Assembly: GCA_002269645.1 (NCBI GenBank)
Contig: NIVC01000136.1
Span: forward strand, 372,001 to 436,000
DNA from: Macrostomum lignano
Taxonomy: Eukaryota
Direction of reading: 5' to 3'
Length of the DNA stretch: 64,000 nt
The notes under the pieces are model-generated. The model worked only from the letters and a program-made list of their open reading frames with translations, was not told the origin of the DNA and did not search any database. The translations under genes were made by a program, and so were the position numbers. Numbering within the stretch: position 1 is the stretch's first letter; each line of letters begins with the position of its first letter. This document shows positions 3,467 through 59,854 of the stretch, one piece after another.

Positions 3467-4649
3467 GCTGCCCCAGCTCTGAGCAGTGCTTAGTTGAGAA
3501 GCCGCTCAGTCAGGTGTTAAAATACAGTTGCAGGGGTGAGGGGGTCAGGAATGAACGAGTCGAGCCATCATCTGTTGAGCACTGTTGGCATGGCAACCTT
3601 TCTGCCTCTCTGCTCGCCCCCCCCCCCAGCGCAGGTTGCTTCTACGCGCGTACATTCATGAGCAGAGTGCTGGGGTTGGTGGAGGGTCCGAGCCTTCGCG
3701 CGGGTCTTAAAAATTGCACCTCTCTGCCCAAGCTTGTGCTCATTTTTCTCTTCTGGCCAAAAGCGCTGCTTTCTTTTGTTCCTCAGTGCAGTGCATCCTT
3801 CGAAAAAGTTATACAAGTAAATTTCCAGAATTTTTGATACCTAAAAAATAGCGGTTTCAATACCATAGCCTACTTACTAGTAGCGTAGTGTGAAGAGGAT
3901 TCTGAAGAAAAAATAATATATCAGGTTTAATTAACTTCTTTCATGTCTATTTAAGTAGTTACAAGTTAAGTATTTAAATAATTATATATATAGTTCAGAT
4001 TCTGTAGGATTTGAGTTCAGATTCTGTAGGATTTGAGTTCAGATTCTGTAGATTTTGAGTTCGGATTCTGTAAGAGTTTGAGTTTGGATCTGTAAACCCT
4101 GAGTTCAGAGTCTGTATGTAGACTGTGGGTTTTTTAAAACTTTCAAAATAAAGAATAAAAAGTCTCAATAATTTTGAAGTGAATTTTTTTAAATAAGGAA
4201 ATATTTTCTGACCATTGTTGCTAAACAACCCAGCTGTTCGCAGCTGACCCAGGTTGGTCTTATTCATTATTTTTAGGGAGGTCATGGACCATTTTTCAAG
4301 CTTAATATACTCGTCTCAACAGCCTTCAGGACAGGTGGTTGTTTGTACTATAGTTAATTTAATAATGATAAAAATATTCCGATGACTCATTAGCACAGAC
4401 AAGTGCGCCCATACTGTACACAGGTACGCACTCATGCACACAGCTCACACAGGGTGTCCAGCGGCCCTCACTTTCCCTGACGTCAGGGCATGTGCACTTT
4501 CTGAGCCTAGGGGTTGGCCCTGCTCAGTTAAGCAGTGTTTTTGCAAAAATCAAAATGAGGATTCGATACAAGAATTATAAATTTCATATCACCTGAAATC
4601 AAACGTTATCTTTTAGCAAAATTCCGGAGCTTTGTTCTATTTAGGTCGA

Positions 4650-5400
4650 ATGAAATTTAAGTCTAATGAAATTTAGGTCTAATGAAATTTAGGTCTGATG
4701 AAATTTAGGTCTAATGAAATTTAGGTCTGATGAAATTTAGGTCTAATGAAATTTAGGTCTGATGAAATTTAGGTCTAATGATATTCAGGTCTAATGAAAT
4801 TTAGGTTTAATGAAATTTAGGTCTAATTAAATTTAGGTCAAATGAAATTTAGGTCTAATGAAATTTAGGTCTAAGGAAATTTAGGTCTAATGATATTTAG
4901 GTCTAATGAAATTTTGGTCTAATGAAATTTAGGTCTAATGAAAATTAGGTCTAATGATATTCAGGTCTAATGAAATTTAGGTCTAATGAAATTTAGGTCT
5001 GATGAAATTTAGGTCTAATGAAATTTAGGTCTGATGAAATTTAGGTCTAAGGAAATTTAGGTCTAATGATATTTAGGTCTAATGAAATTTTGGTCTAATG
5101 AAATTTAGGTCTAATGAAAATTGGGTCTAATGATATTCAGGTCTAATGAAATTTAGGTCTAATGAAATTTAGGTCTAAGGAAATTTAGGTCTAATGATAT
5201 TTAGGTCTAATGAAATTTAAGTCTAATGAAATTTAGGTTTAATGAATTTTTTAAAAAACTTGTGTCTAGTGAGATTTTGGTCTAATGAAATTTAGGTCCA
5301 ATGAAAATTAGGTCTAATGATATTCAGGTCTAATGAAATTTAGGTCTGATGAACTTTAGGTCGAATGAAATTTTTCTAAAAAAATGTGTCTAATGAAATT
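4650..5400. repeat. 16-bp minisatellite AGGTCTAATGAAATTT
   Basis: Tandem copies read directly. Confidence 0.9.
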
Positions 5401-24800: not shown

Positions 24801-27329
24801 TATGAAAATTCAAACCATCGTCGCTGCATTTAGCAGTTCAGTTTGTTCACCTCTAGGCTAGTTCTCATCGTTTTGATAACATCAAATTTTGCACTTATAT
24901 AATTCAACACTTTAAAATCCAAGCATAGAGTAAATCACACAAAGCAGTTATGACATAATCAATTTCACAGTCAGTCAGTATCAGTTAACAATATGCATGG
25001 TTACGCAATTTAAATCAAGTCTGGTGCTACGCTTCCACACTGCATTTTCAATTCAAGTCGGAGTTACAATTCAGTTATGATGCAATCTATTTCAGAATCA
25101 GAATTCAACCAGTCAGTTTTTTGTCTAGCATTCTTACAATGCATTTCAAGTCGAAAAGTTTGCTTGACCTTTGCAAAAAAGCATGTTTTTCGAATATTTA
25201 ATGCCTTTAGCATCAAGCAATTTCTTAGCCACGATGCATGTACCGTCACGGGAAAATTTCTGATCGAACAGTGCAAGTTCGAACAAAATCAGTCCAGCCA
25301 TTTTTTCTCTAATTGATCACATAGATAGATAGATAGATAGATAGACACAGACAGACCATTTTTAGTATATTTAGATTAGAAGATTATAAAATAGTTTGTT
25401 AAAATGATAAAAGACCCCTATACATGCAGCACTTTATAACAATGTTAACGGACAGAGAAGTCGAGGTCTATAGAGGTAGCTCCCCAGTCCCCACCCCACT
25501 CCTTATCCCCACCCTATTTCCTAGTAGACGAACAGTTTTAGAAGGAAATGAGGCCAACTCGTCCAATGGAAAAAAAGGGAAGAACTCCCATCACTGGAAT
25601 TCCATTTCCTGAAACCTATCAGCTGAATCCCATGACTGAATCCCATCATCTGAACATCTCTAAATCCATCAAAATCCTCTCCGCAAAACAGAAATCCTCT
25701 CCATGAAACTGAACACCATCAAAATCCTCTCCACGAAATAAATTCTCTCTATCAAAATTAAAACATTGAAATCGTCTCTGCTAAACTAGACTCAATCAAT
25801 CAATTTTTTTTCTGTCAAACAACTTGACTCTCCAGATTTAATCGTTAGGGTTAGAACTACGCACAGGTTCATGTTAAAAGGCACTGATAAAAATATTGAA
25901 CTAATTGAATCAATTCATTGTGCAACTGATTTCACAGTCAATCCGTCAATCTAAATCAACCTTCCAATACACAGCAGCAGTGAGAAGTTGAACCTTCCTC
26001 CCAACTTTATCTATTATGTCTCGCAAAACTGATTACAATTTTTGCAAAAAGTTAAAAGTATGGGAATAGTTTTCCCAATGAAGAGCTTTTAATTTTCATA
26101 TATAAAGCAAACAACTTATATCCTCGAACTCAGCGTTGCAAGATCTTTCTAGCAATATAAGTTTCTCCTCTCAAAGTTTAAAACTCAAGGAACAGTTAGC
26201 GTTTGAAATTTACTGATTTCCCGACTGCTTGCTAAAGAAGCTCGCAATTCATTGAATTTCACTGCCAATCTAATACACAGGGCTACCTATGGAGAAAAAA
26301 GGTGCCAATAATAAAACCAATTGAATCTTGACATAGTCTATCTGTTTACACTGCACAACTGCTATGTACACTCAGCCCAATCCCAACCCTCCATTCTGGG
26401 GGAAGCATTAAATTTAACTGAACCCCCCAATACGCAGGGGGTTTTATTTGCATTGAACGTAGAACACGCGCACCCCCCTCAATACACAGCAATTCGCAGG
26501 GGGAGGTTGAGGTGGCTATTTTTACAAACAGACCGACAACCCTCTACTAGAAAAACAGAAGGGCCAAAGAAGGTTAAGAAATCAGATTTCTGCTTTTTTA
26601 GGGATGTTAAAATGTGAAAATTAGAAATTAAAATAGCTATAAACCCAGTCCGAAAAATTTGCAGTTTACCCATATAAGTTTCAATGCTGACTTGCCAGTA
26701 GTCTATGAGAAAAATTGTACTAGTGCTATGCCTTTATCATAGTATACTCGAATGTTCTTTCAATGTAATAACTGTATATTCGAATCTTTCTTAGAAACTG
26801 AATCTACGCGAACGCCAAATAATAGTTTGTTTTAATGCGCGAAATAAATTGGAGAATTATTTTTTTGTTTTAATCGTATGTGGGGAAAATCACTATATAT
26901 AGGAGCGGTTTCGCGACAAATATACTCTAACTGTCTTTTACCCGTGAGCAAATAGTTGCAAACAGAATAAGCAGTTCAATCTAAACCATTTCAAAGTCTT
27001 TGAGCTAAATAGCGACTTATTCATTTGCAAAACCTGTGAAATGATTCTAAGAAATTTGCTAAGAGAAGGGAATTGGGACTAATTCTTGGAGATATACTAA
27101 GAGAGGCGCCGTGACCCTCTAGTCTTGGTGAACGCCCGATTAGGACTATTCACTAATACATATATCAGTACTAGACCGCTCAGGCCATAAGCTACCAGAA
27201 CGCTACCAGAAAGCAGGCCATAAGCTACCAGAACGCTACCAGAAACGCTACTAAGAACGCTACCCAGAAATATTTAAATGAAATTCTAAGAAATAGTTAG
27301 GGAGTAAAAACAAGTATAATCAGGATAAC

Positions 27330-27491
27330 TGTAGTTGGCAAACAGAAATAACCCCTGTTACAACTTGGTGGCAATAGAGGGATAATTTGTAGGGACAGAA
27401 GTAAGCCTTGTCACAACTTTGGTTACAGCGGTAGGATTTTGTACCGTACGGGAATACCCCTACCACAACTTTGGTGGCAGCGATAAGGATT
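27330..27491 (+). repeat. Array of three TGTA...ACA units each followed by a PBS-like repeat at the LTR 3' end (copied at 31596-31733)
   Basis: Units 27330-27362, 27388-27415, 27440-27467. Repeats ACTTGGTGGCAATAGAGGGATAATT, ACTTTGGTTACAGCGGTAGGATTT and ACTTTGGTGGCAGCGATAAGGATT. Confidence 0.85.
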
Positions 27492-27571
27492 AGAGAAACG
27501 GCGCGAACTCTTAAAAACTAGATTCAGAAGAATTCCGAAGAATAATTTGAAAAGTTTTTCGTAGAGAAAAG

Positions 27572-28150
27572 ATGAATCAGAATCAGGCTAATGATGCCAT
27601 CGCCATGCTGGCAGAGGAACTGAGGAAACATCTCAAGTTAGGATCGAAGGAGGCTGAAGTGCAAGTAGAAAAGTTCACACCTGGTCAGAACATTAGGCAG
27701 TGGATGAACACGTTTGAGCAGCAGTGCAGAATCCAAGGGATTACAGGCGAGAAACAGAAGGAAGCTCTCTTTGCTAATCTAAACATCCCAGAGGGACTGA
27801 AACGCCGAATCAGTCACAGAAAAGAGCAGAGTCAGTATCAGGAAATTAGGCGACGAATAATCGAAGAATTTGAGCCGAAGCAGCAGAACCGAAAAGAGGG
27901 AATTGATGCATTAGTAGAGTGTCTAATGACCTTGACCTTTGTGCTAACGAACATTAGCCTAGAACCAAAGACAGGGCAGCAGCAGCAGTCAGTGCCAAGA
28001 CCGCGCCGCCTGAACAGATTCAGTGGAATCAGGCCAGAGCCGAAACCTGGTCACTGCTTCTTCTGCAACCAGCCAGGACCCATTAGGCCTCAGGCAGGAC
28101 ACCAGTGCCGAATCAACTTCAACCGGCACGCCCAGCAGAAGCCACCCTAA
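27572..28150 (+). CDS. Truncated gag-like ORF
   Basis: VEKFTPGQNIRQWMNTFEQQCRIQG resembles the capsid N-terminal motif; broken zinc knuckle CFFCNQPG..GHQC; lies directly after the PBS. Confidence 0.7.
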   Translation: MNQNQANDAIAMLAEELRKHLKLGSKEAEVQVEKFTPGQNIRQWMNTFEQQCRIQGITGEKQKEALFANLNIPEGLKRRISHRKEQSQYQEIRRRIIEEFEPKQQNRKEGIDALVECLMTLTFVLTNISLEPKTGQQQQSVPRPRRLNRFSGIRPEPKPGHCFFCNQPGPIRPQAGHQCRINFNRHAQQKPP

Positions 28151-28482: not shown

Positions 28483-29417
28483 TTGATGCTGAGAGAATTG
28501 TGCAGAATTGTGCGAAGAGAATTGTCGAAAAGATTGGATTGCAGAGATTGGCATGACGCGCGGACAGCTACGCATGCTGACCAATTGCGGATTGGCCAAA
28601 GGCAGAAAGAAGAGGCCGATGACGCTTTCAGAAGAGCCAAAAAAGGTTCAGAGAGTCAGGCCATGCAGGAAAGGAAGGGCAGTAAGGCCTAAAGAGCAGA
28701 TTAATACAGAATTTCTATGATTCTACTGACGAGGCCAAACTGAGATAGCGGAAGGGGATTCGAGATTTGAGAATTTGTTAAGAGTTGTAGGACCCGTGAC
28801 AGTAGAGCTGTAGCTGGCATGAGTTCAGCAGAGAAGCTTTCGAGAGGTCAGGGTCGAGTTGAGATATTGAGTCGAGAAGTTGTTGAGTTGAGATGAGATG
28901 AAATGAAGATGAGATTTCGAAGAGAAGCTGTGAGAATTTGCAAAATTGTTCGAAGAAAAACAGAAATAATCTGACTCCAGTGCCGAAATCCGAAATTGAT
29001 TTACCAGAGGAAATTAATAATAATTTAAAACCAGCACCAGTGCCAACTAAGAAGAAAGAACAGCCGAAGCCGAAGAAAAGAATTTGCCATAGACAAAAAG
29101 AAATTAGAATTCCAGAAGTTCAAATTTTAGAGGAGGAAAGCTCAGACGAAGAAAACAGAATTCAATGGAGAGTATTCGCAGATCCGAATTCGCAGAGTGA
29201 AAACAAAGGAAATGAAGAATTGAACAGTGAAAATACAGAGAGAGCGACTGACTCAGATGAGCCATCAGAAGAAGAAGAAGGAGCATTAGAGTTAGAGGAG
29301 GAACGAGTTCAGCCAGAGAATAGGTATAACTTTAGGATGACTCAGCGAAGGAGAGAAAGAGAAGGCGCGACAGGACTTGTGCCCCGAAGGCGCTACGCGA
29401 AATATTTAGCACCTTAA
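28483..29417 (+). pseudogene. Remnant of the pol (integrase) C-terminal region
   Basis: RVVGPVTVEL* near 28780-28815 resembles the Gypsy integrase GPY/F region, followed by an acidic tail with RYNFR (28938-29417). No RT or RNaseH/DDE core seen. Confidence 0.5.
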
Positions 29418-29819
29418 ATCATGACGTAAGCAATTTCCCATAAGAAACAGTGTTAAATAGTTAAAAATTCCGTATTAGAATTACTTATCTGCTTATAAAA
29501 TTTGACATGCTGTACATAGAGCGAATCTGTAAATACCATATTAATCTACAAAATGCGATCTTTAATTTGATACTTTACTCAAGAAAATCTATCAAAAAAT
29601 AAAAAAGTTATAAAAAGAAATAGAAAATCCATAAAAAATTTAGTTGCCAAATCTGTCAAATCTGACATGCCCCGCCCCACGCGCGAGGGGAGTGCTTCGA
29701 AGAGGTCCAGTTTTTCGGCCCGCCAGCCTATAAATACGAGCACCCCGCAGGCCCCACAGATCCCATAGCTCACTGCTAGCTTCCTTTCTATTCTAAGAGC
29801 CATTCGCAGAGAAATCAAA

Positions 29820-30695
29820 ATGAACAACTCTATTGACATCTTGGACGAGTTAATTGGCAATCTGTCAGACGATATGGAGCCCCAGCCAGCGCCCAACACC
29901 GACGAAAATGAGGCACCGCTTCGATGTGCAACACGTCCAAAGGCGCCTGGTGTATCCAGCAAACGGCCAAGAACATCATCGCCAGCTTCATCGCCTTGCC
30001 GCCAAATGAGGGTCGAAGGCCCCGAGCAGAAGCGCGCCGCCCTGGTGGCAGCACAGGCAGCTGCGCCCGTGCGCTCTTATGTTGTCAAGGCCACGCCAGG
30101 ATCGTCGACATCAAGCCGAACGCAGCAGTTGGTGTCACCGCCAGCTGCCCCATCATCGAGAAAGACCCCGGCACCACGGCAGAAGAAATCGACAGCTGCG
30201 ACACCGCCAGCTCAGCAGCCAGCGTCGCAGCCGAGCCTGCAATCAGCGCAGCAGTCAGCGCTGCAGCCGAGCCTGCAATCAGCGCAGCAGTCTAGCCAGC
30301 CATCAGCACTACAGCCGAGCCAGCAGCAATCGAATTCGCAGAGAGATTTTCATCGCATCGTCCGAGAACTTGTGGAGACTCGCGGAGCAGAGGTGGAAAA
30401 GCTACGCTTCCACATTGAGCAATACGCACTGAAAGTAGCGTACCACCGATCCGACAGCCGACAGCGCTACCCCCAATGCTCGCAAATTTGGACACACCTG
30501 AAGTTTCTGAGGGATCAATTCAGTTACCAGGAAGCTGTCGCTGTTCTCCAGGACGTCGCCTATCGCCTCCAGCGAGCTATAAGAGCCAACCCGCCGCCAG
30601 CGCTGACGGTCCTCGACGAAGAGTACCGATGGTTTTTTGCTCAAGTCGGCTGGCCCTACTATCGCGACCTCCCGGAGCCCTGCATGTTTATCTGA
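29820..30695 (+). CDS. Intact orphan accessory ORF (291 aa) inside the LTR element
   Basis: ATG-initiated; S/P/Q/A-rich N-terminal part with KRPR and PRQKK basic patches; about 115-aa predicted helical C-terminal domain (DFHRIVRELVE...EYRWFFAQVGWPYYRDLP). Preceded by a GC box (about 29669-29679) and TATAAAT (29729-29735). Confidence 0.7.
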   Translation: MNNSIDILDELIGNLSDDMEPQPAPNTDENEAPLRCATRPKAPGVSSKRPRTSSPASSPCRQMRVEGPEQKRAALVAAQAAAPVRSYVVKATPGSSTSSRTQQLVSPPAAPSSRKTPAPRQKKSTAATPPAQQPASQPSLQSAQQSALQPSLQSAQQSSQPSALQPSQQQSNSQRDFHRIVRELVETRGAEVEKLRFHIEQYALKVAYHRSDSRQRYPQCSQIWTHLKFLRDQFSYQEAVAVLQDVAYRLQRAIRANPPPALTVLDEEYRWFFAQVGWPYYRDLPEPCMFI

Positions 30696-33327
30696 ACTAT
30701 TGAGGTGAACTAACTTTTGCGTTGCCTTTAATAACAATTTTGCCTTTTATAATACTTTTATAATAGTTCGTTTTGCTTCCATAATAGTTCTCACTTTAAT
30801 GGTTTACCTACATAATAGTTCTATCACAACCATTTTATGCACCAATTGTTTTAGCACTGAATTGTGTTTTCTGCACCTTGCTTTGCACCTTTTCACCTGC
30901 ATTTTCCTACGATATCAATTTTTCACTGTATACATATAATATAGTATTTCGTTCAAAATTTGATATATAGAGGAGGAAAGTTGTACTAGTGCTATGCCTT
31001 TATCATAGTATACTCGAATGTTCTTTCAATGTAATAACTGTATATTCGAATCTTTCTTAGAAACTGAATCTACGCGAACGCCAAATAATAGTTTGTTTTA
31101 ATGCGCGAAATAAATTGGAGAATTATTTTTTTGTTTTAATCGTATGTGGGGAAAATCACTATATATAGGAGCGGTTTCGCGACAAATATACTCTAACTGT
31201 CTTTTACCCGTGAGCAAATAGTTGCAAACAGAATAAGCAGTTCAATCTAAACCATTTCAAAGTCTTTGAGCTAAATAGCGACTTATTCATTTGCAAAACC
31301 TGTGAAATGATTCTAAGAAATTTGCTAAGAGAAGGGAATTGGGACTAATTCTTGGAGATATACTAAGAGAGGCGCCGTGACCCTCTAGTCTTGGTGAACG
31401 CCCGATTAGGACTATTCACTAATACATATATCAGTACTAGACCGCTCAGGCCATAAGCTACCAGAACGCTACCAGAAAGCAGGCCATAAGCTACCAGAAC
31501 GCTACCAGAAACGCTACTAAGAACGCTACCCAGAAATATTTAAATGAAATTCTAAGAAATAGTTAGGGAGTAAAAACAAGTATAATCAGGATAACTGTAG
31601 TTGGCAAACAGAAATAACCCCTGTTACAACTTGGTGGCAATAGAGGGATAATTTGTAGGGACAGAAGTAAGCCTTGTCACAACTTTGGTTACAGCGGTAG
31701 GATTTTGTACCGTACGGGAATACCCCTACCACAAAATTGCAACATACATATAGACAAACAAACAAACATCGCACCACTTTCAGTATTAAACAAGGCCAAC
31801 TCCTCCTCTGGAGGAGAAAGGGGAAGAATTCCCATCACCGGAACTCCATTCCCTGAAATGCCATTCTATGAAACCCATCATCCAACTCCTCTCCGCAAAA
31901 CTGAACATCATCGAAATCCTCTCCGTAAAAGAGAACTCCATCAAACACCTCTCCGTGAAACTGACATTCATCAAAATCCCCTCCGAGAAATAGAAATCCT
32001 CTCCGTAAAACTGGACTCCATGGAAATCCTCTCCGTGAAACTGACATTCATCAAAATCCCCTCCGAGAAACAGAAATCCTCTCTGTGAAACTGGACTCCA
32101 TGGAAATCCTCTCCGTGAAACTGACATCCATCAAAATCGTCTCCGCAAAACAGAAATTCTCTCCATTAAACTGGACTGAATCGAAATTTTCTCTGTAAAA
32201 AAGAATCAACTCTCAGGATTTAGTGGTTAGGGTTAGGGTTAGGGTTAGGGTTAGAGCTACAACGCAGCAGCGTGTTGAACCAATTGAATTAATTGAATGC
32301 GCAACCGATTTCACAGTCAGTCAGTATCAGTCTAGGTAAAAGTTAACAAAAAGATTGCGCAAACTAAATCAACCCTCCAATACACAGCGACTGACCCCCT
32401 TCCAATACGCAGTGGCAATTAAAAGTTGAACCCCCCCTCCTACCAACTGTTGGGGGGTTGGTCGAACCCCCATTGAACTCCAAAATGAGTACACTGCCAA
32501 AAGTTAAAAGTATGGAAATCGTTTTTTAAATGCTGTGCTTTTTGTTTTCACATTTAAAGCAAACAACTTATATCCCCGAACTCAGTATTGCAAGATCTTT
32601 CCAGTAATATAAGTCTCTCCTCTGAAAGTTTAAAACTCGAGGAACAGTTAGCGCTTGAAATTTCCTGATTTAAAGCATTAAAGTATCGAGTGTACGTTCA
32701 CAGCCTGCTAAAGAGGCTCGCAAGTTTATTCATTAAATTTTACTGCCTAGCAAATACACATGGCTGCCTATTGAATGCCGCCGATAATAAAACCAATTAA
32801 ATCTCGACACAGTCCTAGCTATCTCCTTACACTGTACAACTGCTATGTACACTCAGCCCAAGCCCAACCCCCCATTCTGGGGGGAATCGTTAAATTTAAT
32901 TGAACCCCCCCAACACGCGGGGGTTTTGCATTTAACGCAGAACACGCGCACCCACCCCCCCAAAACACAGCGACCCGCGGGCGGAGGTTGGGATGGCTAT
33001 TTTTACAAACAGACTGCAACCCCTCCACTAGAGAGGCAGAGTGGCCACAGAAGGGCCAAAGAAAGTTAGGAAATCAGTTTTCTGCTTTTTTAGGGATCTT
33101 AAAATGTAAAAATGAAAGATTAAAATTGCTATAAACCCAGTCCGGAAAATTTGCAGTTTACCCATATAAGTTTCAACGCTGACTTGCCAGTAGTTTAGGA
33201 GAAAAGTTGCAACATACGGACAAACAAACAAACATCGCACCACTTTTAGTATTAAGAAGAAGAGGGCATTTTGTCTACTCAGCAGACAAAATGACTGGAA
33301 ACCCTATGAGCTATATGCAATGTAGGA

Positions 33328-43203: not shown

Positions 43204-46200
43204 CACAGGTAGGAGGAATTCAAGTTAAATGCAAAAAAATTGCCCATAATCGGTTTTTTGCTCATGGGATAGAATTTGTACTCCTGATTCTAAAATGACC
43301 TCCCATGAAATCCTAACTGATTGGGTTCGCGAGAAATGCTCATAATTAAGTTTTTACCATAGATATGAGGCAGTCCAACAAGCAAAACTCGCCATTCAAG
43401 GATAAGTTGAATGTATTTTGTCCAAAACAGTTCTCACCACTGTGAATTCAATTTGTAGTGTGCAATAGTTCAGGCACTATTTCAAAATATATATTTTAAT
43501 TTAAACAGTGAATCAGCAAATTAATAATTATTATCATTATTTACCTATAGAATTTTTAAGATAATGGCTAATCTTTCTAAGTCTAAACCAAAACAGAAAA
43601 CTGTAATGCAATAGATATTGAGCTGTAAATTCAAATAGATTGTCATTGAGCATTTTTAGTTTTACAAGCAATTACAAATGACAGCTATTAAATTGTACCG
43701 TAGCCTGTAGAAGCTGTTGTCCCATCGCTGGGTCACCACTCCGGCGCTTAAAGTTTTGCCATACTTTACTGAAATCATGGTGAGCACTTTCACCAGCCTG
43801 CTCAGAAAATGTGCCCAGGCCTTTGCCATGCAGTCTGCAAAACTCGACCACATGGACGAACACACAGTGAACTTTGGTGTCACTCTAATAGGTAGCTTGC
43901 AGTAGGACTCTCGAAACTGCTGAATCAGCTGTTCATATTCAGGCTGTAGCTTCTCCCCAAAGCAAGCATGTACCACTTCACAGAAGCATCGAAGGGCTTC
44001 ACCAAACTGCTTCAGCTGCTCAGGCAGGATGCTCGTCAGTTCATCAGCTAGTTGCAGGATTGCGTGGCACTGGTTGCCCTCGAATGATCCTCCGCGATAG
44101 TCAGCGCGCCCGATGTTATGGCTTGCAGCCCAGCTGAGTACATGACCTCCGTCAGCTTCAAGCGAGTCGACGATCTTGTTAACAACTCCAATGAGAAGAT
44201 GCAGTTCAGGTGGGGGCAGCTTGTTGAGTATCGGCTCATCTTCTCCACCAGACAAAAGGGGTTTGTTAACACAGCTTTTAAAAAGCTTGGCCGATCGCAA
44301 CTCATTGCCTGCTTCGGAAAAGGCAGCTGCATTCTTTGTTACACTGCCAAATGTGCGCGTCAGACCATCCGCAGTGAATGGAGCCTTTGCCTCGCACCAT
44401 GTACATGGGTACATTGCCGCGTGATTCTGCAAGCCAATCACTATGTTGGCAAGCTTGAGATCACAAGCAACAGTAAACGAAATCGCCTGTAGATTCAGAG
44501 AGTCCAGTAGTAGTTTTACGTTGAGATAAGTCTCACTAACATCAGGAGCAATAGCGATGATCATTAATTTTTTAACACCAGAGTTGAGAAACTGGCGGCT
44601 GCAGGCTAACTTCTTTACTGGCGATGCTGCAGGCTCAGACTCACCGTTCACAGTCAGCACAACTTTCAGAGAGCCTCCTCCACCATCAATTCCAATCTTG
44701 ACAAAGCTGTTCTCGATGCCACGCTCGGTGCAAATATGATTTAGCAAACCTTGAAGATCGGAGCAGATCACGGCTGGCCTTGGTCCCGAAACCTCCTGAG
44801 TCTGTCCAGATGAACGTATGAATGGCAGCTGAACTAACGTGAAGAAGCTTGTTAGGCAGCGGCCTCTCTTCTGCAGCTCTTCACGAAGGTTAGGCTCGAT
44901 CACATGCTGGCCTGCACCTAACCTAAGAATGCTGGCCAGCTTTAGAGTCTGCTTGCTGCTTAAACTAAGGCCGACTTTCAAAGCCGAAATTGTTTCGTGG
45001 CTTATATATCCTTTCCTAGAAACACTTGTTATAGGTTCAGCAGCTGAGCTAGAAGCTACCTTGACTCGAAGAGGTTTACCAGCAGTTTGACTTAGTACAA
45101 TACCACCTGCTGCAGCCTCATTACACTCCTTGATGACTGAGCTAGCCAGCTGGTGCTTGGTAAGAGGAGATATTTTGTCTCGCAAATTCTTTAATTTGGT
45201 TGTTTTATTGCAGCGATGCTCCAGGCCGGGTCCGATCCGTGACATGCAATGCGAGCAGAGTTTTTGAATCGCAGTAGCCTCTGCCACAGCAGGATGACCT
45301 CGGCCTGCTGGTGGACCTGTGGCCAAGTATTTGGTGTCTGGCACTGCACTGCTGCTCCTGTGTGAGCTGGCCAAGCTACACAGCTCACAGTTGCAGTCAG
45401 GGTTGCCACGAGTTGAAGGCGGCAGAGACTGAAGGTCGGTAACTATCTGGTCATACGCCAGTAGGACTGGAATAGGTCGCGAATCTGGGCAGGACAAAGA
45501 CGAAAGCTTCCTTCTGCAGCCATCACATATGCCAGATGGAAGATATTGTCTTTCTACCTTGAAGCCTTCGTACACTGTAGATTGAATTAGTTCAATCTGA
45601 TGCTCCGTCAAAGGGCAATGCGCTCTTCGAAGACACATGGCACACAGTGCCTGGAGATTTTCTTCGTGGTTTCTTTTCTTTGGCATTGTAGATGATGATG
45701 AGTAAAAACAAGAAAATTGTTTGGACAGTTGATCAATTGAAACAAAATATTCTAAAATGCTCTAAATACTCATTTACATCACCATAAATTGAGCAACTGC
45801 TCATGATTTAGGTATAAAGGGATTGATAAAAAATAATGTGCAAATCGTGTGAGTGTGATCACAAGCAAAATTTTGCCTTTTGCCGTTTAATGGTGGCGGG
45901 TTGAATGTACATATTTTTATCAATTATACGTCAGGTGATTTTTTTGCATATTTCATGATCGTGGTGGTAAATAGACTTAGAAGACTGTACAATACTTGTT
46001 ATCTTCTCTAATTTAGAGAATCAAACTTATTTATATAGAAGAGGCCAATTCTTTACGCTAAGAATGTACAGCATAGCATCAGTTGTAACATCGCACACTT
46101 AACAAAGTTGCCTTAAGTTTTTTGTTTTGTTTTACCCTACAAAAAGGATGATTAAACATACATGCACTCAATACAAATTGAATTCACAGTGGTGAGAACT

Positions 46201-47223: not shown

Positions 47224-59854
<12,631 letters not shown>

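What the first reader, a model, noticed from the sequence alone, without database searches (positions are those of the whole stretch)
27330..27491. LTR ends in a polar array of 'micro-LTR + tRNA primer site' modules
Seen: both LTRs end with three 28-33 bp units, TGTAGTTGGCAAACAGAAATAACCCCTGTTACA, TGTAGGGACAGAAGTAAGCCTTGTCACA and TGTACCGTACGGGAATACCCCTACCACA. Each begins TGTA like the LTR start and ends ACA like an integrase att end. In the 5' LTR each is followed by a 24-25 nt repeat ACT(T)TGGT..CA..G.T.GGAT (period 52-53 nt), of which the last is the real PBS. A still more decayed repeat (..CAGGATAAC) precedes unit 1, so decay increases away from the PBS. Each unit holds a hairpin with different, compensating stems (AACAG/CTGTT; GACA/TGTC; GTA.GGG/CCC.TAC). 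Known: TGGTGGCAGCGGTGGGATT is the complement of the tRNA-Leu 3' end; U5 hairpins next to the PBS govern RT initiation; TRIMs consist of LTR-PBS-PPT-LTR and can form tandem arrays. Inference: the element serially adds new U5/PBS modules at its end. The older modules could be spare priming sites for other tRNA isoacceptors, decoys for tRNA-fragment silencing, alternative integrase ends, or a ~52-bp minimal TRIM-like unit, since the purine-rich repeat tail abuts the next TGT like a PPT. Caveat: the units are homologous to each other, so this is reiteration and not capture of foreign spacers.
Basis: partly seen in the sequence, partly recalled or inferred. Interest (0 to 1): 0.75.

Follow-up and report, generated by a model that had tools for sequence, protein, structure and literature searches.

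The report
Shuffled primer-site arrays in retrotransposon ends
A whole group of flatworm jumping genes ends its terminal repeats in a variable string of up to eight interchangeable 'old end plus old tRNA primer site' modules, likely written and reshuffled during reverse transcription, and some insertions end at an inner module instead of the last one.

Summary
The array is real and clade-wide. The window holds a young, deleted Ty3/Gypsy element (identical 752-bp LTRs, 4-bp TSD). Across 121 other copies the LTR ends in 1-7 modules (8 in one solo LTR), mostly 49-56 nt: an integrase-type end plus a decayed tRNA-Leu(AAG/TAG) primer site. Modules come in dozens of types and in changing order, and are shared between copies with unlike LTRs. 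Four of 60 TSD-bounded insertions end at an inner module, three with a perfect 18-nt tRNA copy behind it; two have a longer 3' than 5' array. Inner repeats mostly carry the tRNA's own signature, not that of the bulged terminal PBS. Best reading: former LTR-end/PBS junctions, written by reverse transcriptase, internalised and shuffled by template switching. The order is not strictly chronological and no function is shown. Ten literature searches found no description. The scan noted smaller, similar stacks in two other genomes (unchecked). New variant of a known kind; interest 0.6.

The parts
26712..26715 (+). 5' target-site duplication (AAAT)
   Evidence: a paralogous repeat at about 32494-33208 reads across the site without the element
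26716..27467 (+). 5' LTR, 752 bp, TGT...ACA, ending in the three-module array
27330..27362 (+). module 1; its first ~13 nt are a decayed primer-site repeat and its last ~12 nt an integrase-type end
27366..27383 (+). inner repeat 1, 14/18 to the tRNA-Leu(AAG/TAG) complement, 8-nt unbroken run
27384..27415 (+). module 2 spacer and end; this module type is the TSD-bounded end of solo LTRs L016 and L017
27420..27437 (+). inner repeat 2, 15/18 to the tRNA complement, 4-nt unbroken run
27438..27467 (+). module 3 spacer and end, the LTR end used by this insertion; an inner module in L061
27472..27490 (+). terminal PBS: 11 nt match the tRNA, then a bulged family-type tail
27551..28150 (+). shortened gag-like ORF (199 aa against 341 aa in L061); no Pfam hit above cut-off
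28902..29417 (+). C-terminal tail of pol; protease, RT, RNase H and integrase core are absent from this copy
29769..30695 (+). third ORF, 308 aa, same translation as in L061, unknown function
30969..30980 (+). polypurine tract
30982..31733 (+). 3' LTR with the same three modules (31596-31733)
31734..31737 (+). 3' target-site duplication (AAAT)

Best explanation
The array is a variable stack of LTR-end-plus-primer-site modules in a Ty3/Gypsy clade, likely former priming junctions that reverse transcriptase wrote and then moved inside the LTR and shuffled by template switching. SHOWN: each module ends in an integrase-type ...CCT.....ACA followed by a decayed complement of tRNA-Leu(AAG/TAG); number and order vary; inner modules serve as TSD-bounded ends; this clade inherits exact 18-nt tRNA copies at the PBS. 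INFERRED: (1) tRNA primes at a junction and the plus strand copies 18 nt of it. (2) That strand pairs with one of several PBS-like repeats on the acceptor, on its own or a co-packaged relative's DNA, or tRNA primes at an inner repeat; either leaves modules outside the LTR. (3) A later cycle primed at the last PBS copies them into both LTRs. (4) Premature transfer or slippage between repeats removes modules. Inner repeats then decay by G loss, mostly stop priming, and act as recombination points. Autonomous and deleted copies exchange modules. I read the array as self-perpetuating and tolerated, with occasional back-up use, not as a proven adaptation.
For: Modules per 5' array in 122 rows: 0:1, 1:12, 2:49, 3:27, 4:24, 5:5, 6:3, 7:1; a solo LTR with 8 and a TSD. 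Of 62 TSD-bounded rows (60 distinct flanks), 53 have the same array in both LTRs. L061, L136, L156 and L165 carry extra modules 3' of the 5' LTR, with the TSD at an inner ACA. L118 and L225/L226 (one insertion) have the longer array in the 3' LTR. A perfect tRNA copy follows the LTR end in 3 of those 4, against 3 of 100 inner junctions and 14 of 52 terminal ones in symmetric insertions. The L165 and L156 arrays also occur with all modules inside both LTRs (L125/L152, L155); L165 differs from L125/L152 at 2 of 885 upstream LTR positions. A tRNA-type GT[GA][GA][GA]AT motif is in 73 of 109 unique inner repeats and the terminal-type AAGGAT motif in 0 of 109. The terminal PBS is a perfect copy in 27 of 109 arrays. 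L170 has tandem modules joined by perfect copies. 88 of 2729 array pairs with <70% upstream-LTR identity share a module at >=90% (45 of 79 arrays). Premature and aberrant second-strand transfer are documented in HIV-1 (PMC12657518, passages); about 50:50 inheritance of the tRNA copy is discussed for ERVs (PMC7472051, passages).
Against: No cDNA ends were seen; every step is read from integrated copies. The asymmetric cases are few, and the three perfect inner sites in the control are the same junctions as in L156 and L165, so the Fisher p (4e-4) is not independent. By alignment score 33 of 109 inner repeats were closer to a terminal-type PBS, 68 closer to the tRNA copy, 8 tied. Deletion between module ends in the 3' LTR could mimic L061 (29 shared nt) and L156 (8 nt), less easily L136 and L165 (3 nt; read). 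L155 is not a direct daughter of L156. L168 ends at an inner module without a TSD. Order reversals (12 of 73) deny a simple chronological record. The upstream-LTR identity uses a fixed window and is lowered by indels. Inner priming, plus-strand mis-transfer and minus-strand switching are not told apart.
Confidence: 0.62

Rival explanations
1. The array is selected: inner repeats are kept partly matched as back-up primer and integrase ends, extra tRNA contacts, or decoys for 3' tRNA fragments, with mismatches near the tRNA 3' end keeping them from competing.
For: Arrays persist across lineages with RT identity 78-100%. Inner ends are nearly as intact as terminal ones (ACA in 62/70 middle and 58/62 terminal). 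In 43 ungapped inner repeats G5 and G6 changed 19 and 28 times but G2 and G3 only 6 and 2 times. A PBS-like hairpin inside the LTR occurs in 15 of 18 stretches of a sister family with about 60% RT identity and in 12 of 121 clade rows. Mismatched PBSs are proposed to escape tRF silencing in mouse ERVs (PMC7472051, passages). Drosophila Gypsy has two tRNA sites (PMC1635307, abstract).
Against: The commonest young subfamily has only two modules. The substitution spectrum is dominated by G>A and G>T, which drift could give. Intact inner ends follow from frequent shuffling to the terminal position (16 of 28 terminal types also occur inside). No structure is conserved. No small-RNA data were examined.
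Confidence: 0.2
2. An ordinary tandem repeat turned over at the DNA level after integration (slippage, unequal crossing-over, gene conversion between LTRs), starting from one old duplication.
For: Adjacent same-type modules in 4 of 79 arrays. Shared suffixes could explain L061, L156 and L118 by deletion. The window is rich in minisatellites.
Against: DNA-level turnover cannot write a perfect tRNA copy at an inner junction (9 of 216). Modules are mostly heterologous (mean between-type body identity 0.51). 53 of 62 TSD-bounded rows have matching arrays in near-identical LTRs (median 99.8%), so most variation predates integration.
Confidence: 0.13
3. The modules are minimal TRIM-like units (micro-LTR, PBS, PPT) or spare sites for other tRNA isoacceptors.
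For: The window's three units do begin TGTA. One inner repeat is 16/18 to Leu-CAG and one has an 11-nt CAG run.
Against: TGTA start in 15 of 127 spacers. All module hits that I parsed lay at LTR ends. No inner repeat equals Leu-CAG or Leu-TAA, and no other tRNA-like end in the 100 of 183 listed pattern hits resembled one (by eye).
Confidence: 0.05

Closest known systems
Canonical U5-att/PBS junction of Ty3/Gypsy (Metaviridae) elements and retroviruses
   Same: TG...CA LTRs, short linker, tRNA-complementary PBS, PPT, 4-bp TSD, pol order PR-RT-RH-IN. Inheritance of the 18-nt tRNA copy is as described for HIV and MLV (PMC7472051, passages) and unlike Ty1/Ty3 (PMC5371799, passages).
   Different: The junction is present 2-8 times, in heterologous versions that change order and are exchanged between subfamilies.
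Premature and aberrant second-strand transfer in HIV-1 (PMC12657518, passages)
   Same: Mis-pairing at plus-strand transfer yields 5'-LTR deletions and tRNA-derived inserts.
   Different: In HIV these products are defective dead ends; here the products appear to go on replicating and have become a clade trait.
Second or bipartite tRNA sites: Drosophila Gypsy (PMC1635307, abstract), yeast Ty3 (PMC5371799, passages)
   Same: More than one tRNA-complementary site on the RNA.
   Different: Those are fixed sites at the two RNA ends, without an integrase end in front; here they are tandem, variable and each has its own LTR end.
Cassandra TRIM tandem arrays (PMC7215508, abstract)
   Same: Head-to-tail repetition involving LTR and PBS.
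   Different: The TRIM unit is a whole LTR plus internal domain; here only about 30 nt of U5 plus a PBS, without U3, promoter or TG start.
cqgypsy_1 of Culex, Osvaldo lineage (PMC3286476, passages)
   Same: Atypical LTR-PBS region with a 26-nt duplication of the LTR end and tRNA-derived sequence.
   Different: A single element with two inserted whole tRNAs; not a variable clade-wide array.
Dual-PBS laboratory HIV-1 variants and two-PBS plant Ogre elements (both recalled; not confirmed)
   Same: Tandem primer sites.
   Different: Two sites at most as recalled, and no library of exchangeable ends.

Membership tests
Ty3/Gypsy LTR retrotransposon | pol order protease-RT-RNase H-integrase | tested here: met
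   Pfam on the family copy L061; the window copy lacks these domains
Ty3/Gypsy LTR retrotransposon | TG...CA LTRs, TSD, PBS and PPT | tested here: met
Ty3/Gypsy LTR retrotransposon | gag with zinc knuckle | tested here: met
   zf-CCHC in the L061 gag
Gmr1/Osvaldo cluster as used in PMC12801592 | RT clusters with a labelled member | tested here: inconclusive
   Quick tree only: the clade has 100 support but only weak (81) grouping with id38 copies, plant elements intermixed; RT identity 45-46%
Mag clade | RT clusters with Mag; usually 5-bp TSD (as in the PMC3286476 table passage) | tested here: not met
   RT identity 33-34% to id115 copies, separate branch; TSD 4 bp
CsRN1 clade | RT clusters with CsRN1 | tested here: inconclusive
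   43% identity to one id55 copy on a long branch
TRIM | unit bounded by two terminal repeats beginning TG | tested here: not met
   15 of 127 spacers with TGTA near the start
TRIM | independent insertions with own TSD | tested here: inconclusive
   None among the 30 loci; no genome-wide search for lone modules was run
CRISPR-like ordered spacer record | strictly polar order of acquisition | tested here: not met
   12 of 73 type pairs in both orders
CRISPR-like ordered spacer record | spacers of foreign origin | tested here: not met
   Every spacer ends in the family's own LTR-end motif
U5 stem-loop controlling initiation | conserved, covarying hairpin next to the PBS | tested here: not met
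tRF decoy array | binding of 3' tRNA fragments | not testable with these tools
   No small-RNA reads were available

The most novel reading that the evidence does not exclude
The clade keeps a shared, selected library of interchangeable LTR-end cassettes. Reverse transcriptase writes each cassette's repeat from the primer tRNA, elements swap cassettes in mixed particles, and detuned inner sites give back-up priming and integrase ends or soak up tRNA fragments. That would be a self-written, recombining end cassette and a readable record of past priming events in a retroelement population.
Probability: 0.2. Interest if true: 0.85.

Novelty: new variant of a known kind. Interest (0 to 1): 0.6.

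Why it matters
LTR ends are normally treated as fixed by one primer site. Here the end is a movable choice among stacked junctions, and integrated copies preserve apparent intermediates (modules outside the LTR, perfect tRNA copies inside it). That gives a natural read-out of primer choice, plus-strand transfer fidelity and recombination between co-packaged autonomous and non-autonomous RNAs, in a laboratory animal. It also offers a test of the priming-versus-tRF-silencing trade-off, since about three quarters of terminal PBSs stay bulged although perfect copies keep arising. Annotation tools that assume one PBS will misplace these LTR ends.

Tried and rejected
Hairpin across the att-PBS junction: no covariation in 144 inner junctions, and real junctions fold no better than re-paired ones. 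Hairpin within spacers: not enriched, although a few types fold well. Direct descent L156 to L155: rejected. An exact two-junction pattern found 0 hits in viral contigs and 0 in metagenome contigs; the pattern was narrow and these collections hold few animals, so this says little about distribution. Expression: no RNA holder listed. Contigs of 4 of the 23 listed runs show module-replacing joints, but these may be other copies and may be DNA. ORF3: no Pfam hit above cut-off and no atlas hit. Rows dropped before the symmetry count: those without an LTR pair, without a clean start, or whose 3' array ran off the locus; 12 'no TSD, different' rows were mostly truncations or tandem elements; L169 and L215 were parser misses. 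Ten truncated rows were completed and none showed extra modules (7 with a matching TSD). Literature searches without a matching description. PMC12801592 has no occurrence of 'PBS', 'primer binding' or 'tRNA' in its main text; its sequence supplement covers only six other families and long cells were cut, and the earlier classification paper it cites was not read, so a mention there cannot be excluded.

Full report
THE ELEMENT. The finding lies at the end of the 5' LTR of a 5.0-kb element: LTRs at 26716-27467 and 30982-31733 with no mismatch, an AAAT duplication on both sides and a polypurine tract before the 3' LTR. A paralogous repeat at about 32494-33208 reads across the site without the element. 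Inside are a shortened gag, the tail of pol and a 308-aa third ORF. A relative in the same genome (L061) has gag with a zinc knuckle, pol in the order protease-RT-RNase H-integrase, and the same third ORF. The window copy is therefore a young non-autonomous Ty3/Gypsy derivative. The RT-RNase H region is 100% identical to an NCBI protein labelled Macrostomum lignano, so the host is taken to be that flatworm. A quick RT tree gives the family 100 support, excludes Mag and leaves Gmr1/Osvaldo only weakly supported.

THE OBSERVATION. The three units and their 53/52-nt spacing are as stated. Host tRNA-Leu(AAG/TAG) genes give the 18-nt PBS exactly. The window's repeats match it at 14, 15 and 13 of 18 positions, and only the last keeps an unbroken 11 nt. 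The TGTA starts, the monotonic decay and the compensating hairpins do not hold up.

THE FAMILY. A gag search scored 150 of 547 candidates; I fetched 121 of the 150. A profile of end, linker and repeat found 1 background hit in 242,000 nt and 1-7 junctions per 5' array, mostly 49-56 nt apart, with one common 80-86-nt module. A solo LTR has eight modules and a TSD. Clustering gave 60 module types in 79 unique arrays. Sixteen of the 28 types seen last are also seen inside; 12 of 73 co-occurring type pairs occur in both orders; among 56 pairs with the same upstream LTR but different arrays the first module is shared in 66% and the last in 30%. Eighty-eight of 2729 pairs with under 70% upstream-LTR identity share a module at 90% or more (fixed windows, so indels lower the LTR figure). 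The array is thus polar on average but shuffled, and modules move between subfamilies. It spans lineages with 78-100% RT identity. A sister family at about 60% identity has an inner PBS-like hairpin in 15 of 18 stretches but no regular array.

INNER ENDS ARE USED. Of 62 TSD-bounded rows (60 distinct flanks; L146/L149 also look like one insertion by eye), 53 have the same array in both LTRs. In L061, L136, L156 and L165 the 5' end carries one or two modules more than the 3' LTR, and the TSD follows an ACA that is internal in the 5' array. In L118 and L225/L226 the 3' LTR is the longer. L169 and L215 were parser misses. Ten more 3' LTRs showed no extra modules. Solo LTRs with TSDs end after 2, 3, 4 or 8 modules. 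Three of the four 5'-extra cases have a perfect tRNA copy right after the LTR end, against 3 of 100 inner and 14 of 52 terminal junctions in symmetric insertions. Those three inner cases are the same junctions fixed inside both LTRs of L125, L152 and L155, so the comparison is not independent; it does show the same array in both states. L165 and L125/L152 differ at 2 of 885 upstream LTR positions, while L155 is not a direct daughter of L156. Deletion between module ends could mimic L061 and L156 (29 and 8 shared nt) but hardly L136 and L165 (3 nt).

WHERE THE REPEATS COME FROM. The terminal PBS is a perfect 18-nt copy in 27 of 109 arrays and otherwise a bulged family type matching about 11 nt. 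Such dimorphism is expected if the tRNA copy is inherited, as discussed for ERVs, HIV and MLV (PMC7472051, passages) and not for Ty1/Ty3 (PMC5371799, passages). Inner repeats carry the tRNA-type motif in 73 of 109 and the terminal-type motif in 0 of 109; by alignment score the split is 68 tRNA, 33 terminal, 8 tied. Most inner repeats therefore likely descend from tRNA copies, not from duplicated genomic PBSs. They decay mainly by G>A and G>T; predicted duplex energy with the tRNA end is -20 kcal/mol at the median against -31 for terminal sites. None equals Leu-CAG or Leu-TAA, though a TGGTGTCAG group may be a relic of CAG priming.

MECHANISM. Shown: variable number and order, inner TSD-bounded ends, inherited tRNA copies, exchange between subfamilies. 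Inferred: tRNA primes at a junction; the plus strand carrying the tRNA copy pairs with one of several repeats, on its own or a co-packaged relative's DNA, or tRNA primes at an inner repeat; modules left outside the LTR enter both LTRs in the next cycle primed at the last site; premature transfer or slippage removes modules. HIV-1 shows both premature and aberrant second-strand transfer (PMC12657518, passages). Which step dominates is not resolved. A selected function is possible, given persistence, hot G5/G6 positions and the sister family's inner hairpin, but is not shown.

WHAT IS KNOWN. The 2025 survey of this species' LTR elements (PMC12801592: abstract, passages, sections 6 and 14, supplement 1, part 1 of 2 of supplement 3, term searches in all five supplements) does not mention PBSs. 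Its sequence supplement covers six other families with long cells cut, and the earlier paper it cites was not read. Ten searches found no description of such arrays; the library lacks most subscription journals. Nearest cases are second tRNA sites (PMC1635307, abstract), TRIM arrays (PMC7215508, abstract) and a Culex element with a duplicated LTR end (PMC3286476, passages). PMC6317226, PMC5407846 and PMC2790888 (passages) gave nothing relevant. Dual-PBS HIV variants and two-PBS Ogre elements are recalled only. The scan's notes list smaller stacks in two other genomes (unchecked), so the principle may recur.

VERDICT. A real, clade-wide and apparently undescribed variant of the LTR/PBS junction, with intermediates visible in the genome. 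The mechanism is likely and the function unproven. New variant of a known kind; interest 0.6.

Noticed in passing
window 29769-30695 (+); L061 1612-2538 (-): Third ORF of 308 aa behind a TATA-like motif near 29729, same translation in the deleted and the full copy; no Pfam or atlas hit. Its retention in non-autonomous copies is unexplained.
   Followed up: partly
L255-L272, about 105-210 nt upstream of the PBS; also L125-L132, L152, L164-L166: A PBS-like sequence folded into a short hairpin inside the LTR is shared between this clade and a sister family with about 60% RT identity; possibly the ancestral inner site.
   Followed up: partly
terminal PBS of all lineages (window 27472-27490): About three quarters of terminal PBSs keep an 11-nt match plus a lineage-specific bulge although perfect copies keep arising; suggests source copies with imperfect PBSs are favoured.
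   Followed up: partly
L141/L142 (G000:C2404), L150 (C241), L126 (C1833), L179/L180 (C1098): Tandem elements apparently sharing an LTR.
   Followed up: no
L018 about 1600-1660: Solo-type LTR whose last module is cut short yet still ends in ACA; no exact TSD.
   Followed up: no
window 32228-32254: A short interstitial run of TTAGGG repeats just beyond the element.
   Followed up: no
window 26043-26717 and 32494-33208: Two 80%-alike copies of a host repeat; the element is inserted in one, the other is an empty site.
   Followed up: partly
window 43662-45761 (-): 699-aa open frame without a Pfam hit.
   Followed up: no
window-wide, e.g. 4481-5244, 52257-54253, 57351-58342: Many minisatellite arrays with periods of 8-40 nt.
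   Followed up: no
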